A DNA stretch of 63,527 bases, the filler included, from Fonticula-like sp. SCN 57-25 (Eukaryota): NCBI GenBank assembly GCA_001724245.1. It is 3 parts of 3 records of this genome, joined end to end, with 100 filler letters (N's around TTAATTAATTAA, not from the genome) between each part and the next. Parts side by side here need not be neighbours in the genome. Positions count along the whole stretch, not along the records: positions 22,131 to 43,789 come from MEDX01000079.1; 2 more parts are not named here. One strand, written 5' to 3'. Below are positions 22,031 through 53,070 of this stretch, one piece after another; position 1 is the first letter of the stretch; each line of letters begins with the position of its first letter. Position numbers and translations under genes: made by a program. A model generated the notes under the pieces. The model did not search any database. It was not told the origin of the DNA and saw only the letters and a list, made by a program, of their open reading frames with translations.

Positions 22031-22130
22031 NNNNNNNNNNNNNNNNNNNNNNNNNNNNNNNNNNNNNNNNNNNNTTAATTAATTAANNNNNNNNNNNNNN
22101 NNNNNNNNNNNNNNNNNNNNNNNNNNNNNN
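22031..22130. other. Assembly gap with artificial TTAATTAATTAA all-frame-stop linker
   Basis: N44-TTAATTAATTAA-N44 with the same design as the second gap. Confidence 0.95.
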
Positions 22131-24406
22131 AGCACGTGCCGGTGGCAACGACGTTCGAAAGCGTGTTGGCGGGCCAAGCCGCGTTGCTGAACGTGTTGGC
22201 AGCGCACATGTTGCCTGCAGATCAGATGGAGAGTAAGCGACAGCTGACGATGAGCCACTGGCGTACGAGTACAGGGAGACGTGACGGTCGAAGCCCAGTT
22301 TCCGTTAATGTCGCACGCGCGCGTTGGCGCTCCAGAGTATCCAGAGACACACGACCCGGTCGCGGAGGCGCCCGCATTGGTGATCGGCCAGTTTGCATTC
22401 TGAACATTGTTCACCGCCGAACACTTGATCTCTGCAAGATCTGTTAGTCGCTGAAGGATACGACTCGTCAATCAGCGAATGGGGATGACGTACGAACACA
22501 TGATCCGGTAATGGCGCCCCAGGCACCCGTAGCACCACACGCGCGCTTGGGAGCCCCTGACCAGCCCGCATTGCAGGTTCCGGAGCCGTCGGTCAGCGAA
22601 AGAGTGAGAGGCCACGTGACCTTGTTTGTTGAGTCAGCAAGCGCAGGGCACTGATAACCTGTGCACCGTCAAATGTCAGTAGGCGTTTTGAATGCGGGTG
22701 ACGATGGCGCACGGGTGCACGGCGACGTGACAGTGCCCCAGGTTCCAGCCGCAGAGCAGGCACACTGCGGCGAGCCATGGTATCCGGATTGGCATGTGCC
22801 CGTGGCTGTGAGAAGGCTGCTCGTCTGGGGGAAGGTTGCGGTTCCGATGGTGGAAGCGGCGCACACGCGGCCTATGGAATGGAGGCGTAAGCCCGCTAGA
22901 CATCATCAGTATGATATATCTGACGCACGAACACACGGCGAGGTAACAGTGGTAGACCACACGCCGTTGTTATCGCAAGCTCTAGTGGGAGAGCCCGCGT
23001 ATCCGTTGATGCAAGTTCCTGCGCCCGATACTCCGGCGGACGTGAGGGGGAATGTGGCGAACCCGTAGCTGCCTGAATTGTCGGCCGGGCAAGTTCGCTC
23101 TGGGGGATGGTAACATTAGCATGCGCCGCACCAAGCCCACATTCACGTACTGACGCAAGGGGACGAGACGGCTCCCCAGACCGTGTTCGTGCACGTCATT
23201 GTGGGTGATCCCATGAACGTAGCCACGCAGGTTCCGGTCTTGGTCTCGCCGGTGTACGCGAATGGGAAGTTTGCATTATCCTTGAGAATTGCGTTGCAAC
23301 TGCTCACTTCATTTCGACAGACACCGATCGTTAGAATTTGGCTATTCGATGAAGGGTACCATACCATTGCATGTGATCCCGTTGCCGCTATACCCGAGGT
23401 TACAGGTGCAAGCGCCATTGTTGCATGTGGCGGACGTGTGGCAAGTGTTGTAGGTAAATGCGACATATGGCTTGTAGGTGCCCGAGCTATAGATATGCGA
23501 TTCCCAGTACCCGAGGACGGTAGATGTTGTGGTGGCGCGAAGTGATGTCTATAATCGAAAACATTTGGCATAAAGTCAACGCGAGAGTCTTTCGCATGCG
23601 CCAGTGAACGTACTAAAGTGTTGCTTCCCCGAACGGCGGCGTTCAACATGTTGTTGGTCAAGTTGATTGTGTACCATCTTTGTTGACGTTAGCCACCGCT
23701 ACCGTGAATGATTATGGCATAGTTTTGTCGTACCTGCTTCCTCTGGAGAGCGGCGTAGCGGTCACAGCGCCAAAGTTAGAGGCCAAAGGTGGTTGGTTAC
23801 TCCACTTGATGCCAGTGTTTGTCCTTGTTATTGGAAAAAAGAGCAGACGCAATACTTCGGTTAGCAAGACTGTTCTTCATTCGCGTCGAATTGTCGGTGC
23901 GTACCAGGCAACGGAGGGTGCGTCGATCGTCACCGCTGCAGGTGCTCCTGAGGTACCCCAGTTGAGCCAGAGGACGGGCGTTCCAGTTGCGCAGAATCTC
24001 GAGGGGGTGGGCTGGATCATGGGTGTTTAGCGCCATTCATGCGTACTAGAATATTCGTACGGCAACGCCGCTAAAGTCAAAGTGCCAATAACCGTAGATA
24101 GGATTGGTGCCGGTGCCACCGCGCACGTATGTCCAGCGCCACGAGGCTATAATTATAATGTTCAGTTATTTTACCATCGCTGCAGAGGTGCAGAGTATTG
24201 GATCCTGTGTCGTACAGGTAATGGCGTAGTTGTTGTTAATGTTTAGTGCCCAAGTAAAAGCCGAATCTTTCATGTAGATGTTGGTTTGGCCCAGCACAGA
24301 AGTAGCTGCTCATTGAGAGTTAGATCATCGAAAGGGTTTCCTGTTCAGTACCCAGCATGGCTACAGCAAGCGCGAGAACGGCAACTGTTGACGTTGGCGT
24401 CATCAT
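22131..24406 (-). CDS. Secreted/cell-surface protein: signal peptide, DNRLRE-like domain, EGF domain, at least 6 sushi/HRM-like Cys repeats; 3' end lost in the gap
   Basis: Hand-spliced across about 12 introns: MMTPTSTVAVLALAVAML|ATSVLG..GYWHFDFSGV..AWTNTGIKWSNQP..KPYVAFTY, then CHTSATCNNGACTCNLGYSGNGITC, then repeats C..A(N/T)(F/W)P..GTC..GY.GSP.R.C...G.W....SPC. Confidence 0.8.
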
Positions 24407-26580: not shown

Positions 26581-27953
26581 ATGGCCGATGATGCTGCACG
26601 GACTCGACGCGCCGTACCAGCCGAGGCGTTTTACACATCTGTGGGAGCTCAGCTGAGCGAAGCTGTACGAAAACGCTCGTCTGATGCACTTGCCAGCGCG
26701 CATCACCGGGTAAAAATAGAGGCAGCGCTTCGAAGTAATACCCCGCTCCCATCTGCAACAATTTCGCGCCATAACATTTCCCGCGACTTTTTCAAGCTTC
26801 GAACCGCGCTAGAGTATAGTCGGGAAGACCGCGAACAGAAGGTATTTGTGTTCATGTTTGAGGATCCGAGGAATGGGTGGCGGCGGTTTCAAGTGGCCCC
26901 TTTGGACGAGTTCTGGTTGCGCTATAGGTACGCGCATAACTATTGACCACGCCGACGCGGTTCTCACGTTTGCAAAGCGATATGCAGAGCTCTGAGCGCC
27001 ATTTCTATGAGATCATCCCCGACGGAGTTCCGTGCAAGCTCTACTTTGATCTTGAGTACAAACTTGCCCCCAACGAAGGATGCGATGCCGAGGCGCTCGT
27101 CGCGTCTTTCAAGTCACTTGTGTCCGGCGAGCTCGAGCAGGCCTACGGCGTATCAGTAGACCCAGAGATGATTCTTGATTTGCGTTCAGCGAGCGCGGGT
27201 AAATTCTCGAGCCATTTGATATGGGATCTTCCGGGCGTCGCATTTGCGGATAACGTTCAGGCGGGCAACTTTGTGCTCAGCATGCTCTCCAGGTTTCGGG
27301 CCTGCATTTCCGATGGGCAGGATCCCCGCAGTGCGGCCATGAAGCGGCTACTTGTGAAGAATGAGCAAGGCGAGACGGAATTTTTTGTTGATCAAAGCGT
27401 CTACACGCGGAATCGCGCCCTGCGGATATATCTCTCGTCCAAATTTGGAAGCCGTGCTGCATTCCACCCCGCTGACCATCCATCGCCAGGGCTCGTCGCG
27501 CCGTCTCGCGCTCTTTTCGAAAGGTCTTTGGTGACTCACCATGTCTCCGCGCCCGCGCGGCTGCTCACTGCCACAGGGCCGTGTTCGTCGTCCTCGAGCG
27601 CGCCCTTTGTTGACTTCCCTTCCGCAGACGGCGCGGCGCCGTCAGATCTGGACGCATTCGTGCTCTCGATCGCTACTGAGAATGGGGGCCCCAGTGCGAC
27701 CATCCGCTCTCGCCAGCTCAGCCCGGATCGCGGGACACTGCGCTTCAATATGGCGGGCAATCGGTTCTGTCACAATGTCCGGCGCCAGCACAAGTCAAAC
27801 AACGTCTACTATGACGTCAAACTCTCGCACGGCGTCGTGTTCCAGCGATGCACCGACACTGATTGCAGGGGGTATCGCTCTTCACCCCGGCTTGTTCCGG
27901 TGGAGCTTTTGCCCGATCCCTCAAAGGCAGGCGCAGCAGAGCCTCAAGCATGA
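26581..27953 (+). CDS. PRIMPOL: DNA primase-polymerase PrimPol (intron 26928-26977)
   Basis: HFYEIIPDGVPCKLYFDLEY (DxE), KFSSHLI, DQSVYTRNRALR, and the UL52 zinc finger CHNVRRQHKSNN..QRCTDTDC. Confidence 0.93.
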
Positions 27954-43789: not shown

Positions 43790-43889
43790 NNNNNNNNNNN
43801 NNNNNNNNNNNNNNNNNNNNNNNNNNNNNNNNNTTAATTAATTAANNNNNNNNNNNNNNNNNNNNNNNNNNNNNNNNNNNNNNNNNNNN
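43790..43889. other. Assembly gap with artificial TTAATTAATTAA linker
   Basis: Same 100-nt N/linker design as the first gap. It truncates both flanking genes. Confidence 0.95.
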
Positions 43890-46800
43890 TTATGCACACG
43901 GAGCTGGAACACGGAGAGACCCGTCATCCACGCGACAAAGCGCGTGAGCGTCGTCTTGCCGGCGCCGGACACACCGATGAGCAGAAGGGGGCCCTGCACC
44001 TGCTTGAAGACACGGCCGATGCGGAGAACGTGCTCGAGCACGTCGTCGAACAGCACGAGCGGGACGTCAAGCTCCTCTTCGTAGAAGACGCGCAGGCGAG
44101 CGCGGATAAACTCGCGCAGCTCCTCCTGGTCGACCGGCACGTAGTTCTTTGACAGCCAGTCCGAGTAGAGAATCGGGCGCTGGAGGGCGCGCTCAACGCT
44201 AGAAAGAGCACCGCCAAAGTTCTCCGTCGCAACGCGGTCAATAAGCTCGTTGGTCCACTGGCGCTCCTCGGGCGTGACGAGACGGTCACCAAAGAGGCGA
44301 AGAGCCTCGTGCGCCCAGAGACGCACAAGGCCGTCGGCGTCAAGCTCACCCGCAAGCGGGCGGATGGCCTCGTAGATGCCGCGCACCCAGCGGGTCAGCT
44401 CACGCGGCGAGTAGATGTAGTGCGCCTGCTGGTCGGGCGTAAAGTGCTGCTGCGAGGCAAGGTAGACCTGCACCATAGAGTCCGTCAACGGCGTTGCGAG
44501 AGAGCGCAGAGACGGGGTCATCTTGAGGGCCGCGCGGTTGAACGTTCCGTAAATCGCACGCAGCGACTCCTCGCCGGGGTAGTCGACAAGGACAATCGGC
44601 GTGTGACGCATGAAACGGGGCGAGAGCGGGACACGGCCGGGATCGGTCGGCGGGTTGCACGCACCCACAAACTGGATGCGGTCGAGGCGAACCCACTGGC
44701 GGTCCGACGTACGCCAGAAGCCGTTCTGCTCGATGAGCTGGCGCATGAAGCTGATAACACGCTGGGTGCCGTACTTGTCCGCCGAGGGCAAGTTGATTTC
44801 ATCGCAGAAAAGAACAAGCCACTTGCCGGGGACCGTGGGCGAGAGCACGAGGCCGCTGGGCGTCTTGCGGAACTCGCAGTACTGCTCGAAACTCTTGATG
44901 AGGAGCTCGGGGGTCGTGGCACTGCTAAAGTTGAGGCCGATAACCTCAAGCTCGGGCAAAGCACGAAGCGCAGCAAAGAGCGTCATGGTCTTTCCGGAAC
45001 CAGGAGGACCGCAGAGCAAAAGCGGGCGGTGCTCGGCAAGCCAGCCGTACAGCACATCCTCGTGGCGAACGGTGTCGACCGTCGGAACAACCACGTCGGA
45101 CGCGATGACGCGGTGCGTCTCAATATCGACAACCGGAACGCGAGATTGCCACGGGACCCACTCGCCCGTCGCCGCATTCACCTCATAGTCGAGAAGAGAG
45201 CGATCAGGCGACGGAAGAGACGTTCCCGACGTCGCAAGAATAAAGTTGCTAAACTCGACACGCTGCGCAAGGCGAGCGTCACCCGCAAACGACCACAAAA
45301 GGGCAAACAGCAGGCGCCGCGAAGCAAAGCTATCGACCAGGTCCACCGACATAGGGAAGTCGGTGTGGAGCTCGTTGTAGTCCTGAATGATGCGCACGCT
45401 CTTGTTCAGCATGGAGAAAAGAGTGCCGAGAGCACGAATGCGCGAAAAGTCCATGATGTGCTCAAAGCCTTCAGCAAACGCGAGCGCGCGAGACACCAGG
45501 CCGTCCGGAGAGAGGGCGGCCTCCCAGATGTTGGCGCAATCGCGCTGAATCTGCATCGACGGCGGGACAGCCTGCGCAGCAGGCTCGGTCTTTCCCTTGA
45601 CGGGGCTGCTCGTGGGCGCCGGGACATCGCCAAAGGTCGTGTTCGAGTCATCCAGCGGACGCGAGCGAAGCACTTGCAGGTAGTGGTAGTAGAGCATCGA
45701 AAGGCCAACGACATCCTCGCTGTACCAGACCATACCGCAACGACTGACCGTAGCCAGCGTGGCCGACTTGAGATCCTGCACCTCAAACATGATGCGCATG
45801 TTGGGCGGAAGCGACAGGCGCTCGCCGTTGGGAAGCGTGAGGAGCTTGTTGTCATCGAGCACCGAGTTCAAGTTCTCCACCCATTCAGGATCGACATCAC
45901 CGTCAAAGATCACCCACTGGCGCTTGGTCAGCTCGCCACGAACGTTATCGAGGACCTTGCGCAAAACGTGCGTGAAGAGACCGTCGGTCCATTCGCGCGT
46001 CGTGGGGTCAAGCGTGCCGTAAAGCGCCTCCTTGGGGATGGCCTTGGGGTCAATGATGTGGGCGACGCCCTCAACACCCTCGACGCGCTGCAGAGCCTGC
46101 AGGAGAACAGACCACGACGAGGACTTGCCGCTGCCGGAAGGTCCAACAAGCATAACACCGTGGTTGATGCGCTGGATCTGGTAGAGCTGCAGCGTCTTCT
46201 CCACCCAGGCGTCGGACGGCACGAGATGGCGCTCGGCGCACACGGCGTGAATGGCCGCGCGAAGCGCCTCGAGGTCGGCAGGGCGGTAGGGAATGCCGGG
46301 GAACACGTCAGCAAGCAGGCTCTTGAGAAGCGGTATATCGTCCGCAACGAGCTTGGGCACGACAGTCTCGGCGACCGACTGGATGAGAATCTCCTGCTCG
46401 GTGGACGATGAAGCGGCCTCCGACTGGCGGCCCTCCTGAGTGAGCAAGCGAAGGCGCTCGCGCTTCAAGTTACCCGCCGAAACAAGCACCGACTTGAGGG
46501 CGCGGAGACCAAAGTCATAGTGAGGCTGCGGCGAAAGCTGCTCGAGACAGAGATTGAAGAACGGAACAATCTTGGACGCAAGCGTTTCGGCCGTGCGGAA
46601 GCCCTGGGAGAAGAGCATCACCTGCGAGATCATCTCGCGATCGGGCTTGGTCATGGCCATGCTGCGGAACAGCTTCTTCAAGTTGTCGGGAAGGTTCGAG
46701 CGACCGGCGTAGCCAGGGTTCATAGTGATGAAAATACCCGTGGACGGCTGCACGACAACGCGCTTCTCGACCAGCTCAATCTCGATCTTGCCAGACTTGC

Positions 46801-49800
46801 CAGCATGATCCTTGAGGGCAACCTGGATCGTCTGAATCTGCTGCGAAACGGCAGAGAGAATGCGCTCCTCGAGACGGTTGAACTCGTCAAAGCAGCCGTA
46901 CGCGCCGACCTGGCAAAGACCGACGAAAATGCGGCCCATCGCCTGGAAATCAAAGTTTTCGTCGCAGCAGAACACGAGGACAAAGCGGCCGAGCTGAGCA
47001 CCGAGCGCCTTGACGGACTCGGTCTTTCCGGTACCGGCGGGACCAAACGGAGAGCCACCGAGGCGCAGGTCGAGCGCCTGGGTCATGGTAAGGAAGCAGC
47101 GGTCCGTGAGCGGCGTCTGCACAAGCTTGTCGACGACACCGAGGTACTCGTATCCATACTCAAACTTGGCGTTGGCCATATGGATGGAAAGGCGGTCGAG
47201 CGACGAGGGCTCGCCGCGCTTGGCATCGTAATAGAAGCGCATGTGGTACAGCCACGCGAAGGACTTGGGCGACACAACGCGCTCCGCGATGAGAGAACGC
47301 ACGAGATCCCTCTGGTGCACGAGCTCGGTAATGAGGTGCTCGCACTTGCGGCGGTGAATCGGCTGCAGCTCGTCAAGCACTGTGTCGGCAAGGAGGTCAA
47401 GCGCCTCCTTGAGGCGGTGCAGGATATGGCCCAGGTTGGTCGTAGCGGCAGCATTGTCGGTCAAGGCGCCCTCGACGGCCGCTGTCCAGTTGATCTGCGC
47501 AGCGAGGACGACGAGCTGGCAAGGCACAGCGCTGATCCACGACAAGTACTTTTCGGCAGCGAGAGGCCCAGCCTCGGGAGCAGCCGCGAGATCCTGGCAG
47601 CTTTCCAGCGAAGCGACAGCCTCCGACAGCTCAATAGCAAGAGTGCGCTGCATCTCGGCCTGAAGGGCGGAAAGCCACTCGTTGATGCGCGGCATCTCCT
47701 TGATAGAGATGGTCTTGCGGAACTTGATCTCCTCGCCTTCCTTGGAAGCCATACCCAAAATCGTGGTGGCTTCCGCATCCAGCAGGAGGGAGGCAAGGCC
47801 GGCAAACATCTTCTTAAAGTGCTTCTGGATCTTGACCAGATCCTTGGCGTTACCAATGATCTCGAGCAGATCTTCGTCACCAACAAAGTAGAAGCGCGGG
47901 AATGCCGCGCGTTCCTTTTCAAGGTACTCGCCGAGCGCCTTCTGAATCTTGGCCAGCATGTCGGCAAGGCGCTCGACCGAACGCTGCACGTTCGCGATCG
48001 CAATGACCTCGAGAACCTGAGGAGCCTTGGCAACCTTCTTCATCATTCCGAGGAATTCCTGGTTAATCGACTGGAAGCGAGACGACTCGGTCGGCAGAAG
48101 CGCCTTGATATCGGCGGAGCCCGAAAAAATGCCCTCCAGGTAGACCCACTGGCGCTGAACATCAATCCAGACATCAAAGAGCAGGTTCACGCGGTTCAGC
48201 TTCTCCTCCCACGCCAGTGCTTCGTCCTCAAACACCTTGAAGAAGGGCGACAGCTTCATGGCGGACATGCTGTTGAGATGCTCGCCGCACTTGGCAAAGA
48301 GTTCGTCCCAGCCGCGAATGAGGTGGCACTTGCCCTGGTAGGGGACCAGCTCCAACTCGTACGCCTGCCACGTCTCGCGGACGGTCTTGAGGTACTCTTC
48401 AAGCGCCATTTCACCCTGGGCAACAGTGATGACTTCCTTGACGGGAACCTCGTTCTTGGTCAGATTGAGCCCCCAAACGTGACCAAGAGTCATCTCGGGC
48501 AGGAGGATGCGACCCTCGACGCGCAGCTTCTTGAACAGCAGCTTCCAGTGGCGCTCGCGCAGAGCCTCCGACTTGAGCTCGGCGATAAGAAGGTTGATCT
48601 TGATGTACTGACGAACCATAACCTGCACATGCTCAAAGGCAGCATACTGCTTGAGGCGCGCAGGCATGTCGCGGAGCAGGCCCTGCAGCTGATCGAGGCC
48701 AGCGCGGACCTTGCGCGGAAGCACGGAAGCCCACGGGGTCTCACCGAGCTCGTTGAGCGCCGCCCACACCTTGGACAGCTCAACCCAAACAGTGCGAAGG
48801 TCCTTGAGCTCCTCCAAGAGCGGGGCAATGCGGTCATCTTCGCGGGCCTCCAGATCCAGCGCCTCCTTGGCGCGAGCAATCTGCTTCACGCTATCGGCCA
48901 AGCGCTGCATGCGGCCCTCAAAGACAGACATAGTGTTGAGCGCCGCCTCCGGGCGCACGTCGCCTTGAATGGGCTTGCCAGCATCCCACTCGGCCATGAG
49001 CTCCTTGACACGCGCGTCGATGCTCGAGTCCTCGGCAAGCACCTTCTGCTGAAGGGTAGAGAGGCGGTTCTGAATGTCGTCGGTCTTGCGCGCAAGGATC
49101 TCGCTGTAGGCCGACCACTCGCCGCTCACCTGGTCAAAGTAGAGCCAATCGGCCGGGAAGGCAAAGCGCTGGCGCTCGAGCTGACGCTGGCCGGAACGGA
49201 AGTCGTCGAGCTGGCTTTCCCACGCGGCCGCCTTGCGCTTCAGGTCCTGCACAAATGTGATAAATGTAACGGCGGCCACGGTACTGTCGCCGTCCAGCGT
49301 TTGCTCCTCGAGCTCGATGCGAGCCTGCGAGATAGCAGTGAAGAACTCGTGCATCGCCTGTCCCAAACGCTTGCCATACCGAGTGAGGAGCTCGCGCTGC
49401 CAAGCGTCATACTTTTCGTTGACCTTGCTCTGCACCTGGGCATACTCGACGACGAGCGGGCCAAAAGAACGCGATACATCAGAAGTATCAAACGTAGAGC
49501 GCGCCGTGCGGATCTCCGCCAAGAGGCGCTGCCAGCGGCCGAGGTCATTTCCAAGCTTGCCAAACACAAGCGACTCGTCAAGATCCCACAAGGCTTGGTA
49601 CTGGAGCCACACGGTGGTGTACTCGGACACCTCGCGCAACTTGCCCTCTACTGCCTCGTAAGCGCGCTGGAGCTCGCCGCTCTCAAGAAGGCGCCCAAGA
49701 AGCGAACGGAACGACGCGGTTTGGGCGCCAGAGTCGGCGCGCAGATCAAAGCGGTTGCTCTGCAAAAGAGGAAGGTCGCACACGGCGCCAATGAAATCGT

Positions 49801-52800
49801 AAAGCTGCTGGATCCACGTCACTCGAGAGCTCTCGAGCGGAGGATCCAAAAACATGGTCTGGTTGCGGATGCGAAGCTCGTGGACCTGGCGGCTGAGCGG
49901 CGGGGCAACAGTGTGAACCGCCTCGGCATCGCGCTCCGACATCAAAGCAGCTGCGCGAGCAGGCGTAAGGGAAGAGCGCCCACCGCGACGCTTGCGGGGC
50001 GTGGAGGAAACACCGTCGGTGTCGTCCAACTCCAAGTGGGGGTTTGTCGGATCCTCGGCGAGGAAGACCTTGACCCAGGCACGCACTGCCTCCTGGAGAC
50101 GCTTGATGAGAATCTCTGCCAGTTGGGCGTTGAGTCCAGCAGTCCACGTCTGAACGTTGCTGTACGACTTGTAGTTGAGCTGGTCGACCTGCTTCTGGAG
50201 CTCGTTGACGTGCTCGGCCAGCACGTTGGGGCGGAATGCGCACGTCCGAAGGGCCGCGATGCTCTTCTTGGACGACTCGGTGATGGCAAACAGCTCATCA
50301 GCGCTGTTGGAGTACAGCATCACGCTGTCGGAGAATTCACGCAACAGACTGGTATGCGCGCGAGCCTCCGAGAGGCGATCGGCGCCGCCCGTGACGAGGG
50401 CATCCCACGTGAGGCCCGAAGTGCGCTCGAGCAGCACGCGCACGCTCTTGCGGATAGACGCGATGAGAGGGCGAACCGAGGGATCGGCATCGACGCGCTG
50501 CGTCGTCAAGTTGTACACGTGCAGGGTTTCGCGCAGCGTGACGGCGTGCGGATAGACCATGCGACCGAGCTTTGCAGTCTGGGCGATCGCCGGCGGAATA
50601 GGGAAATCGTATGCGCGGGTCACGCCCAAAACGCTCGACGAGGCACCCGAATCGGCAGCAGCTGCCAGGGCGCTGGACGACTCGAAAGCAGACACCGCAC
50701 TCATGTTGTTAAAGTTGCGGACCTCCTTGAAAAGGGTCTTGAGGTCTTCCGGAAAGTTCACGTCCACGTGAAGGCGCACGACTCCGTCAATGCGGCGACG
50801 CTCGACAATGAGCATGTGGCCGGCAACCTTGAGATTGCGCTTGGACACGTCCTGCACCCAGGACTCAAAGATCTGCTTCGGGTCGAGCTTCTTGTGGAAA
50901 GCATTGAACTCGCTGAGCAGCTTCTGAGAGGCCGTGTACTTCTCCCAGCCTTTGCCGAGGACGTCCTCGACGCGCTGAATGTTGGCCAACAGCTGGCGCT
51001 CAATCTGACGCGCCCATAGAATGTGGCCTGACACAGGAGGGAGATCGCGCAGGGTGGCGAGACGAGCAGCCGGCGATGCCTCGTACTTGCGAAGGAAGGA
51101 TTGCCGGAGCTTTTCGATATCCTCCTCCACGTTCTTGAGCAATGTGGCTTGGTAGTCCTGCACCGCAGCGCGAACCTTGGGACGCACAAAAAGAGCGTTA
51201 AACTGCGACAGAACGCGGAACATGTCGGATGAGTTGCGGGCCTCGCCGAGGCGCTCGCGGAGAAGCTCGATGATGCGCGATTCGACGTGCGAGACGCGAA
51301 TCTCATAATCGCGCTCCGACGTCACCCAGATGTCGATGCCTTCAGGCGAGAGATCAAGCGCATCAATGAGTTTCAGTGGCGAATACGCACTGTCCACTTC
51401 TTCGACCGCGCTTTTCCCGCCATCAAGGTGCATTTGGCCGGACTGCACAACGTGCGTGACCGTGTTGAGCAACTGCGCGTGACGCCGGCGGAAGGTCTGC
51501 AGAGCAGTAACGCGATCCTTTAGGCGAGAGTGCTCAATGACGACCTTGCTGATGATCTCGTGGCGCTTGCGCAAGATGTCGCGCAGAGCGCTCACAATGT
51601 CATTGGTGCCAGAGTCAAACTTGGCAAAAAGATCCTCCAGTTGCGCAGCAATGTGCTCAAACTCGGTCATGGGCATCGCCATCAGGCTTCTGCCAGGAAC
51701 AATACGAAGAATCTGCTCCATAAGGTCGCGCGAGATCGAGCGCGTAACGAGCGAGGCGAGGCGCTGCGCCGGGTATTGCGTGTTGCGGGCCTTCTTGTTG
51801 ATATGGCTCAACAGGCGGGACACGCTCTCAGAGAGCGTAGGAAGATCCTGGGCCGAAAGCAAGTCGTTGATAGGAATGTCCTTGAGAAGCGACTGGTAGC
51901 GCGCGATCTTTTCGAGTTCCTCCTTGACTCCGTTGTCGTTCTCAAAACTAACAGAGACCGTACGGTGCCCCTTGGTGGCCTTGAGCAAATTGAGCGTCAG
52001 CTGCACGCCTTCGCCGTTGATTTGGTCCTCCACGCGTCTAAGAACAGCCTCCTTGGCGGACCAGAAGGAAATCTCCTGCTGAGCAGAGTGTGAAGCCACG
52101 TCGTGCTCGTGCTTAATCGCCGCTTGAATATCGCGCAGCCACACCGCGACATGCTGAGAAATCTTTCCCATGTAGGCAGCATCGCCCATGTCACCGGTAA
52201 AGTCGCCCAATGAAGCCTTGCGACCTTCGCTCGCCGCCTTTTCGAGCATCTTCACCACGGCAGCAGGGATGGCGAGCTCGACATCGGAAATTCCCACATT
52301 CTGCTGAAGATTCAACAATGAACGCGCAAGCTCCGACATGTTCTTCTTGACATTCGGAATGACGGACTTTTCCTTGTCGGCATCCTTGGAACTCGCGACA
52401 TACGAGTTGAAGTAGGGCGAAACAGCGTTCTGGATGTACGAGTGCAGCTCCTGGAACGGCGATTCCTCTCCAAGATTCAGCAACTGCAGCTGGGAGGCAA
52501 TCGACCGGTCCGCCTCAATCACACTACCGCGCTTGATAAAAGCCACGGCCGACTGGTGGGCAACCGAAAAGGTCATACCCAACTGCAGGGTGAGCGTGTG
52601 CTCGCTGTCATTCTCGCCTTCGTTCTCCTGCCCTTCTTGGCTCGACTTGAATACCACCAAAACAGGGTACTGCGCGTCTGTAGCAAACTTGAACATTGTG
52701 CTCACATTGTCCGGCTTCTCCAGGAAGGCGCGAGTGACCTCATCCTTGAGCTCGAGGGTCAGGGCCAAAAGGCGCGAAATGTAGAGGCTCAGAGGGCCTA

Positions 52801-52876
52801 CGTCAGTCACGGCGGTCACCAAGGGTGGAGAACCCTCTGCCACCGCCGCGGCCTTTGCGTCGTCAGACGCGTCCAT
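43890..52876 (-). CDS. DYNC1H1: Cytoplasmic dynein 1 heavy chain (N-terminal ~3000 aa, truncated in AAA4 by the gap)
   Basis: P-loops GPAGTGKT, GPSGSGKS, GPPGSGKT and GVSGAGKT, plus CFDEFNR and WVENLNSVLDDNKLLTLPNGERL, in an uninterrupted ORF. Confidence 0.97.
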
Positions 52877-53070
52877 TCTCTCACTCCGCACTGAGACGGC
52901 AAACTAGGAAAGACAGATGTCCGCTCCTTTGTTTCTCGTCCGTGTGCCTCGCAAAAGCGCGCTAAGCGAAAATACGCCAAAAAAAAGCGCGAAAGATTCT
53001 TTACCTTTCCAAGTCTCATTTGCAGTAAAAAGACCACGTAAAATACAGAGTAGCAATCAGATAATCAGTC

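What the first reader, a model, noticed from the sequence alone, without database searches (positions are those of the whole stretch)
23360..24406. Prokaryote-type DNRLRE/CBM96-like domain domesticated in an intron-rich secreted eukaryotic protein
Seen (hand-spliced and invisible in the ORF track): signal peptide, then DSAFTWALNINNNY..YVRGG..YGYWHFDFSGVAP..VLWLNW..VTIDAPSVAWTNTGIKWSNQP..WYTINLTNNML..GSNT..WESHIYSSGTYKPYVAFTY, then an EGF domain. Established: the DNRLRE domain of bacterial/archaeal surface proteins (CBM96 members bind alginate) has the ordered pattern D..NYG..yl.FDLS..L.L..W.E..ITWNNQP..W..DVT..S.E..P.L.VTY. Inference: this is a horizontally acquired carbohydrate-binding head, now split by several introns and mounted on a eukaryotic stalk, possibly a prey or biofilm recognition lectin. 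The locus looks more AT-rich than the core genes.
Basis: partly seen in the sequence, partly recalled or inferred. Interest (0 to 1): 0.7.

Follow-up and report, generated by a model that had tools for sequence, protein, structure and literature searches.

The report
CBM96-like head on protist surface protein
An uncultured single-celled relative of fungi has a real, intron-rich gene for an exported surface protein whose tip is a diverged copy of a binding module otherwise known mainly from bacteria and archaea, set on a stalk like that of animal Eph receptors.

Summary
On the minus strand, 24406 to 22131, 13 exons joined by 12 GT..AG introns give one open frame of 525 codons, cut by a contig end. 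It encodes a signal peptide, a head of about 173 residues, an EGF-like unit and at least 5.5 four-cysteine repeats.

No RNA run was listed. In four DNA metagenome runs, 21 of 24 exonic variants shown are synonymous third-position changes.

I could not send the spliced head to the curated libraries. Two stand-in profiles built from verified bacterial and archaeal CBM96/DNRLRE domains match it over the whole domain: 27.7 bits (E 1.3e-10) and 26.2 bits (E 3.4e-10). hhalign gives 96% probability, and 0 of 4000 shuffles reach the real score.

The stalk repeat folds confidently, and its best fold match is the EphA2 cysteine-rich domain.

Horizontal origin is plausible but unproven. Identity to prokaryotic members is at most 34%, no donor is resolved, there are six introns, and GC3 is ordinary. 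The lysines and arginine that bind alginate in the founding member are not kept, so the ligand is unknown.

The scan has noted CBM96 38 times before; none of the 8 notes shown was eukaryotic.

The parts
24352..24406 (-). Exon 1: start codon (ATG at 24406) and most of the signal peptide; ends in phase 1
   Evidence: Splice model. Reading on into intron 1 meets a stop.
24216..24305 (-). Exon 2: end of the signal peptide (residues 1-24 read by eye, cleavage after VLG is an inference) and first strand region of the head
   Evidence: Related metagenome contigs match 24208-24288 and then diverge. Codon 32 carries a synonymous variant.
24061..24146 (-). Exon 3: head, with the FDFS strand that aligns to the family's FDLS
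23905..24011 (-). Exon 4: head, central strands up to the first Trp of the family motif; holds the head's only Cys (residue 84)
   Evidence: Codon 87 carries a synonymous variant.
23734..23823 (-). Exon 5: head, IKWSNQP motif (family: ITWNNQP)
23614..23677 (-). Exon 6: head, WYTINLT strand (family: W..DVT)
   Evidence: A diverged related copy in runs X2 and X5 matches 23602-23680 only, that is the exon plus donor and acceptor.
23365..23548 (-). Exon 7: last strands of the head (KPYVAFTY) and an EGF-like unit with five Cys
   Evidence: EGF_3 scores 21.7 bits, below its cut-off of 28.5. The C-terminal part of the head alone scores 14.2 bits against the stand-in profile.
23151..23306 (-). Exon 8: stalk repeat 1 (four Cys, about 52 aa), phase 1-1
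22929..23099 (-). Exon 9: stalk repeat 2, phase 1-1
22713..22871 (-). Exon 10: stalk repeat 3, phase 1-1
   Evidence: Ten of 11 variants shown here are synonymous.
22494..22658 (-). Exon 11: stalk repeat 4, phase 1-1
22267..22431 (-). Exon 12: stalk repeat 5, phase 1-1. This is the repeat that was folded.
22131..22214 (-). Exon 13 (partial): first half of stalk repeat 6, cut by the contig end. The rest of the gene is missing.

Best explanation
This is a real, spliced nuclear gene of an uncultured holomycotan protist (the fungi-plus-nucleariid branch). It encodes an exported cell-surface protein.

After a signal peptide comes a head of about 173 residues, which is a diverged homologue of the prokaryotic DNRLRE/CBM96 beta-sandwich binding module. 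The head is followed by an EGF-like unit and a rod of at least 5.5 sushi/Eph-CRD-like four-cysteine repeats, each in its own phase 1-1 exon. The C-terminus (anchor, or fn3, membrane span and kinase as in some relatives of the stalk) is lost at the contig end.

Most likely the rod holds the head away from the cell, and the head binds an extracellular polymer, probably a glycan. That ligand is probably not alginate in the manner of the founding CBM96.

Shown: the gene model, the profile homology of the head, and the fold class of the stalk. Inferred: the beta-sandwich fold of the head, ligand binding, surface display and the domain's origin.
For: Gene model:
- 13 exons give an open frame of 525 codons.
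- Splice signals are uniform, and retained introns would put a stop in frame or shift the frame.
- 21 of 24 exonic variants shown are synonymous third-position changes.
- The contig's other genes are eukaryotic. NOG1 is 63% identical to a chytrid's and 60% to Fonticula alba's.

Head, first stand-in profile:
- It was built from 62 bacterial and archaeal segments. Of these, 22 of 22 tested pass both the PF24517 and NF033679 cut-offs.
- It scores 27.7 bits, E 1.3e-10, covering profile positions 19-183 of 186. The head alone scores 30.7 bits.
- 2000 full shuffles reach at most 8.7 bits. 2000 shuffles that keep the motif reach at most 18.2. With the motif masked the head still scores 12.9 bits.
- hhalign gives 96.3% probability, E 2e-9.

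Head, second stand-in profile:
- It was built from 54 segments picked by the curated Pfam model, not by the motif. It scores 26.2 bits, E 3.4e-10.
- Without the 10 segments that carry the exact motif it scores 25.3 bits.

Head composition: 10 Trp and 11 Tyr among 173 residues, with few charged residues.

Stalk:
- Five repeats share 10 invariant columns.
- The AlphaFold2 model has pLDDT 95.6.
- The top Foldseek match is the EphA2 CRD, TM 0.80.
- 614 library proteins carry the repeat. Of 32 scanned, 4 end in fn3 plus a kinase, and others carry varied N-terminal heads.
Against: - The curated Pfam and NCBIfam models could not be run on the spliced product. Single head exons hit nothing.
- No structure of the head could be predicted, so the fold is inferred from sequence alone.
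- The N-terminal part of the head alone scores only 2.8 bits.
- By the profile alignments, the residues essential for alginate binding in TM6-N4 are mostly replaced: the R36 equivalent is Ile, K22 is Ser, K27 is Thr (PMC9971899 passages). The mapping is approximate. The head has only 10 Lys plus Arg.
- No relative with this head was found. None of the 150 best stalk-repeat proteins has it, and none of 10 metagenome loci or the rest of the window does.
- Only 5 of the 24 exonic variants shown lie in the head.
Confidence: 0.6

Rival explanations
1. Origin rival: the head was not acquired horizontally by this lineage. It belongs to an old, vertically inherited but poorly annotated eukaryotic branch of the CBM96 / TGF-beta-prodomain-like fold family.
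For: - Six spliceosomal introns lie inside the domain, and its GC3 (64.0%) is within one SD of the window's long open frames.
- Identity to any of 116 prokaryotic reference domains is at most 25-34%.
- The head sits on a long branch (1.89 against a median of 0.54), with only 0.67 support for a bacterial sister group.
- CBM96 is reported in two diatom gene models (PMC12028343, passage) and as a frequent add-on of GH71 enzymes (PMC12394665, passage; the taxa are not stated).
- One of 22 archaeal or bacterial reference segments passes the Pfam TGFb_propeptide cut-off.
Against: - The family is frequent in prokaryotes: at least 123 loci hold one exact motif, and 23 of 121 and 18 of 121 sampled genomes have it.
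- The passages seen describe it in archaeal and bacterial surface proteins and enzymes.
- No eukaryotic relative of this head turned up in my limited searches.
Confidence: 0.35
2. Function rival: the head keeps the fold but is not a lectin. It binds a protein, or it acts as a structural cap or prodomain-like module of a receptor ectodomain.
For: - The basic groove residues of the alginate-binding founder are not kept.
- The fold is shared with TGF-beta prodomains, which bind protein (PMC9971899, passage).
- The same stalk carries many unrelated heads in other proteins: subtilase, VWD, ALK glycine-rich domain, FG-GAP.
- The head's single Cys (residue 84) and the five-Cys EGF-like unit could form an inter-domain disulfide (inference).
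Against: - The family's characterised members and partners are carbohydrate-active (PMC9971899, passages).
- The head is rich in Trp and Tyr (21 of 173 residues), as sugar-binding faces often are (general knowledge).
Confidence: 0.25
3. The resemblance to DNRLRE/CBM96 is chance or convergent motif similarity.
For: - The single exons hit no curated model.
- Identity over the hhalign alignment is 17%.
- The first reference set was chosen by the very motif the head resembles.
Against: - 0 of 2000 full shuffles and 0 of 2000 motif-kept shuffles reach the real score. The motif-masked head still scores 12.9 bits, P 4.5e-6.
- A profile from 44 references that lack the exact motif still gives 25.3 bits, E 6.5e-10, across the domain.
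- hhalign gives 96.3% probability.
Confidence: 0.05
4. The head is bacterial contamination or a chimeric assembly joined to a eukaryotic gene.
For: The window is a metagenome bin of joined contigs.
Against: - Six introns with the same GTACG donors and CTAAC branch-like words as the stalk introns interrupt the head. The frame runs unbroken from the signal peptide through the head into the EGF-like unit and stalk on one contig.
- Several other metagenome runs hold the same exon-intron stretches.
Confidence: 0.02

Closest known systems
CBM96 (Pfam PF24517) / DNRLRE domain (NCBIfam NF033679). Solved members: 7VBO (TM6-N4 of alginate lyase Dp0100, Defluviitalea phaphyphila) and 8WAB.
   Same: - Same length class, about 160-170 residues.
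- The conserved blocks come in the same order: N-Y, FD.S, W....I.W.NQP, W..(D/N)(V/L)T, P.(L/V)...Y.
- Full-length profile matches. The PDB members were found with the reference profile.
   Different: - It lies in a eukaryotic gene split by six introns.
- 6 of the 9 specified motif residues are kept (E to N, T to K, N to S).
- The conserved Arg before FD.S, and most Lys that bind alginate in TM6-N4, are replaced.
- It is almost uncharged (D+E 2.3%, against 10.7% in the references).
- It is fused to an EGF-like unit and an Eph-CRD/sushi-like stalk, not to enzymes, fn3 or PKD domains.
Sushi-like subdomain of the Eph receptor cysteine-rich domain (EphA2 CRD, 8TRS/3MBW); also the HormR domains of class B GPCRs and complement CCP modules
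   Same: - The stalk repeat has four Cys, an invariant Trp and a five-strand fold.
- The top Foldseek matches are EphA2 CRD, TM 0.75-0.80, rmsd about 2 A.
- Sequence hits to Sushi, HRM and Ephrin_CRD are weak, as is the hit to factor B CCPs.
   Different: - Here the unit is repeated at least 5.5 times in tandem, one per phase 1-1 exon. In Eph receptors it occurs once.
- No Foldseek match reaches E 1e-3, and single repeats stay just below the Pfam cut-offs.
Metagenomic and Blastocystis proteins with long arrays of the same repeat (P0001-P0150), some ending in fn3 plus a protein kinase; and the receptor family noted earlier in this genome (e1-7130711)
   Same: Same stalk module, with E down to 0 and up to 30 repeats. 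The layout is a variable N-terminal head followed by a stalk.
   Different: None of the 150 best has a CBM96-like head. Whether this gene ends in a kinase is unknown because the contig ends.
CBM96 annotated in eukaryotes: diatom Thalassiosira weissflogii TwChi29 and TwChi34 (CBM96 plus PKD; PMC12028343)
   Same: A eukaryotic gene model carrying a CBM96 assignment.
   Different: I saw one passage only. Those domains sit with PKD in chitinase-related proteins, in a different lineage, and their sequences were not compared here.

Membership tests
CBM96 / DNRLRE (PF24517, NF033679) | Score over the curated cut-offs (26 bits for Pfam, 34 bits for NCBIfam) | not testable with these tools
   The spliced product cannot be handed to the library tools. 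The five head-only exons, scanned singly, hit nothing in Pfam or NCBIfam.
CBM96 / DNRLRE (PF24517, NF033679) | Domain-long similarity to a profile of verified members | tested here: met
   - Stand-in HMM 1 (62 references; 22 of 22 tested pass both curated models): 27.7 bits, E 1.3e-10.
- Stand-in HMM 2 (54 references picked by PF24517): 26.2 bits, E 3.4e-10.
- hhalign: 96.3% probability.
- 0 of 4000 shuffles reach the real score.
CBM96 / DNRLRE (PF24517, NF033679) | Ordered conserved blocks, including W.E..ITWNNQP (invariant in the 22 aligned references, which were chosen by that motif) | tested here: met
   All blocks are present in order. The motif keeps 6 of 9 specified residues. Gly of N-Y-G is Ala.
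CBM96 / DNRLRE (PF24517, NF033679) | Beta-sandwich fold as in 7VBO and 8WAB | not testable with these tools
   Structure prediction accepts only unspliced window translations. No database relative of the head was found to fold in its place.
Alginate-binding CBM96 in the sense of TM6-N4 | Basic groove: K10, K22, K25, K27, K31, R36, Y159 (PMC9971899) | tested here: not met
   I transferred the numbering through the profile alignments (an offset of 15 fits 12 named residues). This gives R36 to Ile, K22 to Ser, K27 to Thr; the K25 position is Arg. The mapping is approximate at this divergence.
Sushi/CCP, HormR and Eph-CRD superfold (stalk repeats) | About 55 residues, four conserved Cys, conserved Trp, small beta fold | tested here: met
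   - The alignment has 10 invariant columns, including 4 Cys and a Trp.
- pLDDT is 95.6.
- EphA2 CRD matches at TM 0.80.
Pfam Sushi (PF00084) | Score over the cut-off of 20.7 bits | tested here: inconclusive
   The best single repeat scores 20.5 bits. HRM scores 20.5 against a cut-off of 26.2, and Ephrin_CRD 17.4 against 27. Multi-repeat relatives pass easily.
EGF-like domain | Six Cys in the C-x-C pattern and a score over the cut-off | tested here: inconclusive
   EGF_3 scores 21.7 bits against a cut-off of 28.5. Five Cys lie between residues 200 and 224.
Horizontally transferred gene or domain | Nested with support inside a prokaryotic clade and absent from related eukaryotes | tested here: inconclusive
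   In the FastTree of 110 rows the head is sister to 15 bacterial tips with 0.67 support, on a branch of 1.89. No eukaryotic proteomes could be searched.

The most novel reading that the evidence does not exclude
A glycan-binding module of prokaryotic origin was captured long ago, filled with introns and wired as the ligand-sensing tip of an Eph-like, sushi-stalk surface receptor, perhaps coupled to a kinase at the missing C-terminus. The host is a phagotrophic relative of fungi. This would be a pattern-recognition receptor for bacterial or biofilm polysaccharides, built by exon shuffling outside animals.
Probability: 0.15. Interest if true: 0.75.

Novelty: new variant of a known kind. Interest (0 to 1): 0.45.

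Why it matters
If the reading holds, a binding module typical of bacterial and archaeal surface proteins and glycan-degrading enzymes has been built into a eukaryotic surface protein made of animal-style shuffled modules (EGF-like unit, sushi/Eph-CRD-like repeats in phase 1-1 exons). That happened in a lineage next to fungi.

This bears on two questions: how unicellular opisthokonts assembled their extracellular recognition proteins, and how far domains of prokaryotic type contributed to them.

It also offers a nearly uncharged, aromatic-rich CBM96 variant whose ligand is unknown. On its own it remains one new domain combination of known parts.

Tried and rejected
- Single head exons against Pfam and NCBIfam: no head hit. 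They are too short to be informative.
- Whole genome of the window: none is held, so no genome-wide paralogue count was possible.
- The search for homologous proteins with exon 7, longer proteins: 51 candidates, none at E <= 0.001.
- RNA evidence: no RNA holder was listed among 23 runs. The four runs laid are DNA contigs, so they show no splicing.
Nine matched only the EGF part, and one matched residues 12-60 at 38%.
- tblastn of the head against those 10 loci and the window found nothing beyond the gene itself.
- Head relatives among the 150 best stalk-repeat proteins: none. The best stand-in HMM hit was E 0.14 and the best phmmer hit E 0.01.
- Other stalk-repeat genes in the window: none.
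- Donor search by pairwise comparison and a tree: unresolved.
- Supplements of PMC12394665, searched for which GH71 members carry CBM96: no occurrence in 3 files, and one PDF of pictures could not be read.
- Earlier notes of this scan: 0 notes hold 'CBM96 eukaryote intron', and there was no look-alike of the stalk repeat.
- The third homologous-protein search was left unused. A head exon of at most 35 residues cannot reach significance against 5.8 billion sequences unless the match is nearly identical.
- The contamination or chimera reading was rejected because of the shared intron signals.
Full report
**What is there**

The window is three metagenome contigs joined by N runs and a TTAATTAATTAA linker, with N at 22031-22130 and 43790-43889. 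The finding lies at the low-coordinate end of the middle contig, on the minus strand.

Starting from the ATG at 24406, I joined 13 exons across 12 introns of 46-81 nt. This gave one open frame of 525 codons that runs off the contig end at 22131.

- The product has a hydrophobic signal peptide. I read residues 1-24 by eye, and cleavage after VLG is an inference.
- A head follows, from residue 25 to about 197.
- Next is an EGF-like unit at residues 198-225. EGF_3 scores 21.7 bits, below its cut-off of 28.5.
- Last come five and a half repeats of about 52-57 residues, each with four cysteines and each in its own phase 1-1 exon.

**Is the gene model real?**

- All 12 introns are GT..AG. Eight of 12 donors read GTACG, and 9 of 12 introns hold a CTRAY branch-like word.
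- Ten of 12 introns would put a stop in frame if retained. The other two would shift the frame.
- No RNA run is listed for this stretch, so I used population variation instead.
- In the contigs of four DNA metagenome runs, read laying showed the 40 best-supported variant places; 82 more were not shown. Sixteen lie in predicted introns, which make up 700 of the 2276 nt. Twenty-four lie in exons.
- Of those 24, 21 are synonymous third-position changes and 3 change the residue. This is the signature of purifying selection in exactly this frame.
- Only 5 of the 24 exonic places lie in the head (4 synonymous), so the support there is thinner.
- Diverged related contigs in runs X2, X4 and X5 match exon 6 plus its donor and acceptor (23602-23680), or exon 2 plus its donor, and then run on unlike the window (tables 7 and 8). 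This fits a second copy or a sister species whose exons are conserved and whose introns are not.

**Whose gene is it?**

- The same contig carries open frames for a PAP2 protein, a primase-like protein, a cNMP-binding protein, a topoisomerase (Pfam Topoisom_bac), NUFIP1 and NOG1.
- Among named proteins, NOG1 is most like those of chytrids (63%) and Fonticula alba (60%).
- The organism therefore lies in the fungi-plus-nucleariid branch and has no close sequenced relative. This agrees with earlier notes on this genome.
- The holder runs are bioreactor, wastewater, aquatic and 'fungus' metagenomes.

**The head**

Single head exons hit nothing in Pfam or NCBIfam, and the spliced protein cannot be passed to those tools. 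I therefore built stand-in profiles in the script box.

First profile:
- I scanned prokaryotic genomes for the motif W.E..[IVM]TWNNQP.
- Sixty-two of these had enough open frame on both sides. Of 22 tested, all 22 pass both PF24517 CBM96 (49.7-163 bits) and NF033679 DNRLRE (35.7-116.6 bits).
- A profile of the 62 scores the spliced protein at 27.7 bits, E 1.3e-10 for this single comparison. It aligns profile positions 19-183 of 186 to residues 40-204.

Controls:
- The head alone scores 30.7 bits, and the reversed head -1.0.
- 2000 full shuffles reach at most 8.7 bits.
- 2000 shuffles that keep the motif in place average 6.8 +/- 4.0 and reach at most 18.2.
- With the motif masked the head scores 12.9 bits (P 4.5e-6).
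- The C-terminal part alone scores 14.2 bits. The N-terminal part alone scores only 2.8.
- hhalign gives 96.3% probability, E 2e-9, over 133 columns at 17% identity.

Second profile, built to remove the motif bias:
- I let the curated Pfam model pick CBM96 domains in 247 prokaryotic genomes. It found them in 23 of 121 genomes of one bacterial phylum and in 18 of 121 of one archaeal phylum.
- A profile of 54 such segments scores 26.2 bits, E 3.4e-10.
- Without the 10 segments that carry the exact motif, it still scores 25.3 bits, E 6.5e-10.

The homology claim therefore stands on sequence evidence. The fold was not tested.

**How the head differs from known members**

- The reference profile finds two solved members, 8WAB and 7VBO. 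7VBO is TM6-N4, the alginate-binding founder of CBM96.
- I transferred that numbering through the profile alignments. An offset of 15 fits twelve named residues. In the head, the Arg36 position is Ile, Lys22 is Ser, Lys27 is Thr and Lys25 is Arg. The mapping is approximate.
- The head is nearly uncharged: K+R 5.8% and D+E 2.3%, against 8.0% and 10.7% in the references. It holds 10 Trp and 11 Tyr among 173 residues.
- I therefore expect a binding module with a ligand other than alginate bound in the TM6-N4 manner.
- The head has one Cys (residue 84), and the EGF-like unit has five rather than six. A disulfide between the two is my inference.

**The stalk**

- The five full repeats share 10 invariant columns.
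- The folded repeat has pLDDT 95.6.
- No Foldseek match reaches E 1e-3. The top rows are the EphA2 and EphA4 cysteine-rich domain (TM 0.75-0.80), followed by HormR domains and complement CCPs. The sequence profile touches factor B CCPs at E 1.2e-3.
- In the library of 1.84 billion proteins, 614 carry the repeat, 214 of them at E <= 1e-10.
- Of 32 long ones scanned, most are HRM/Sushi/Ephrin_CRD arrays. Four end in fn3 plus a protein kinase. Others carry subtilase, FG-GAP, ALK glycine-rich, VWD, CHRD, ricin-type or Big_5 modules.
- Of 10 clusters looked up, one is named (Blastocystis sp.) and the rest are metagenomic.
- None of the 150 best carries a CBM96-like head.
- The stalk therefore looks like a general scaffold for varied heads. 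Our gene's missing C-terminus could be an anchor or a kinase; that remains open.

**Origin**

- The family is common in prokaryotes.
- The head is only 24-34% identical to the best of 116 reference domains over 61-145 residues.
- In a tree of 110 rows by 166 columns, it sits on a branch of 1.89 against a median of 0.54. Its sister group is 15 bacterial tips, at 0.67 support.
- It holds six introns, and its GC3 is ordinary.
- I could not search eukaryotic proteomes.
- CBM96 is already assigned to two diatom gene models (PMC12028343, one passage). It is also described as a frequent add-on of GH71 enzymes, with the taxa not stated (PMC12394665, passages; no occurrence in its supplements).
- Searches for CBM96 or DNRLRE found 23 papers. 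Searches for PF24517, NF033679 or DUF7594 found 3. None that I read describes this architecture.
- An old transfer is plausible. A recent one is unlikely. Vertical descent is not excluded.

**Verdict**

The family assignment is supported by stand-in profiles. The transfer and lectin readings remain hypotheses. This is a new domain combination of known parts.

Noticed in passing
window 22031-22130 and 43790-43889: The window is not one molecule. It is three contigs joined by N runs around a TTAATTAATTAA six-frame stop linker. The gene studied is cut at such a joint, and what lies below 22031 belongs to another contig.
   Followed up: yes
window 43892-52900, minus strand: An open frame of 3003 codons with no intron encodes the N-terminal two thirds of a dynein heavy chain (DHC_N1, DHC_N2, AAA_6, AAA_5, AAA_7, start of AAA_8). 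It is cut by the contig joint. The absence of introns contrasts with one intron per roughly 40 codons in the gene studied.
   Followed up: partly
[not shown]
   Followed up: partly
window 22131-23306, minus strand: All six stalk-repeat exons begin in phase 1, and the five complete ones also end in it, one module per exon. This is the layout associated with exon shuffling of extracellular modules in animals, seen here in a holomycotan protist.
   Followed up: partly
window 23602-23680 and 24208-24288: Runs X2, X4 and X5 hold diverged contigs that match only exon 6 or exon 2 with their splice sites. This points to a second copy, or a sister species, with the same head. It could not be retrieved as sequence.
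   Followed up: partly
window 26940-27953, plus strand: An open frame with a Herpes_UL52-type primase motif (E 1.8e-8), probably a PrimPol-like gene.
   Followed up: no
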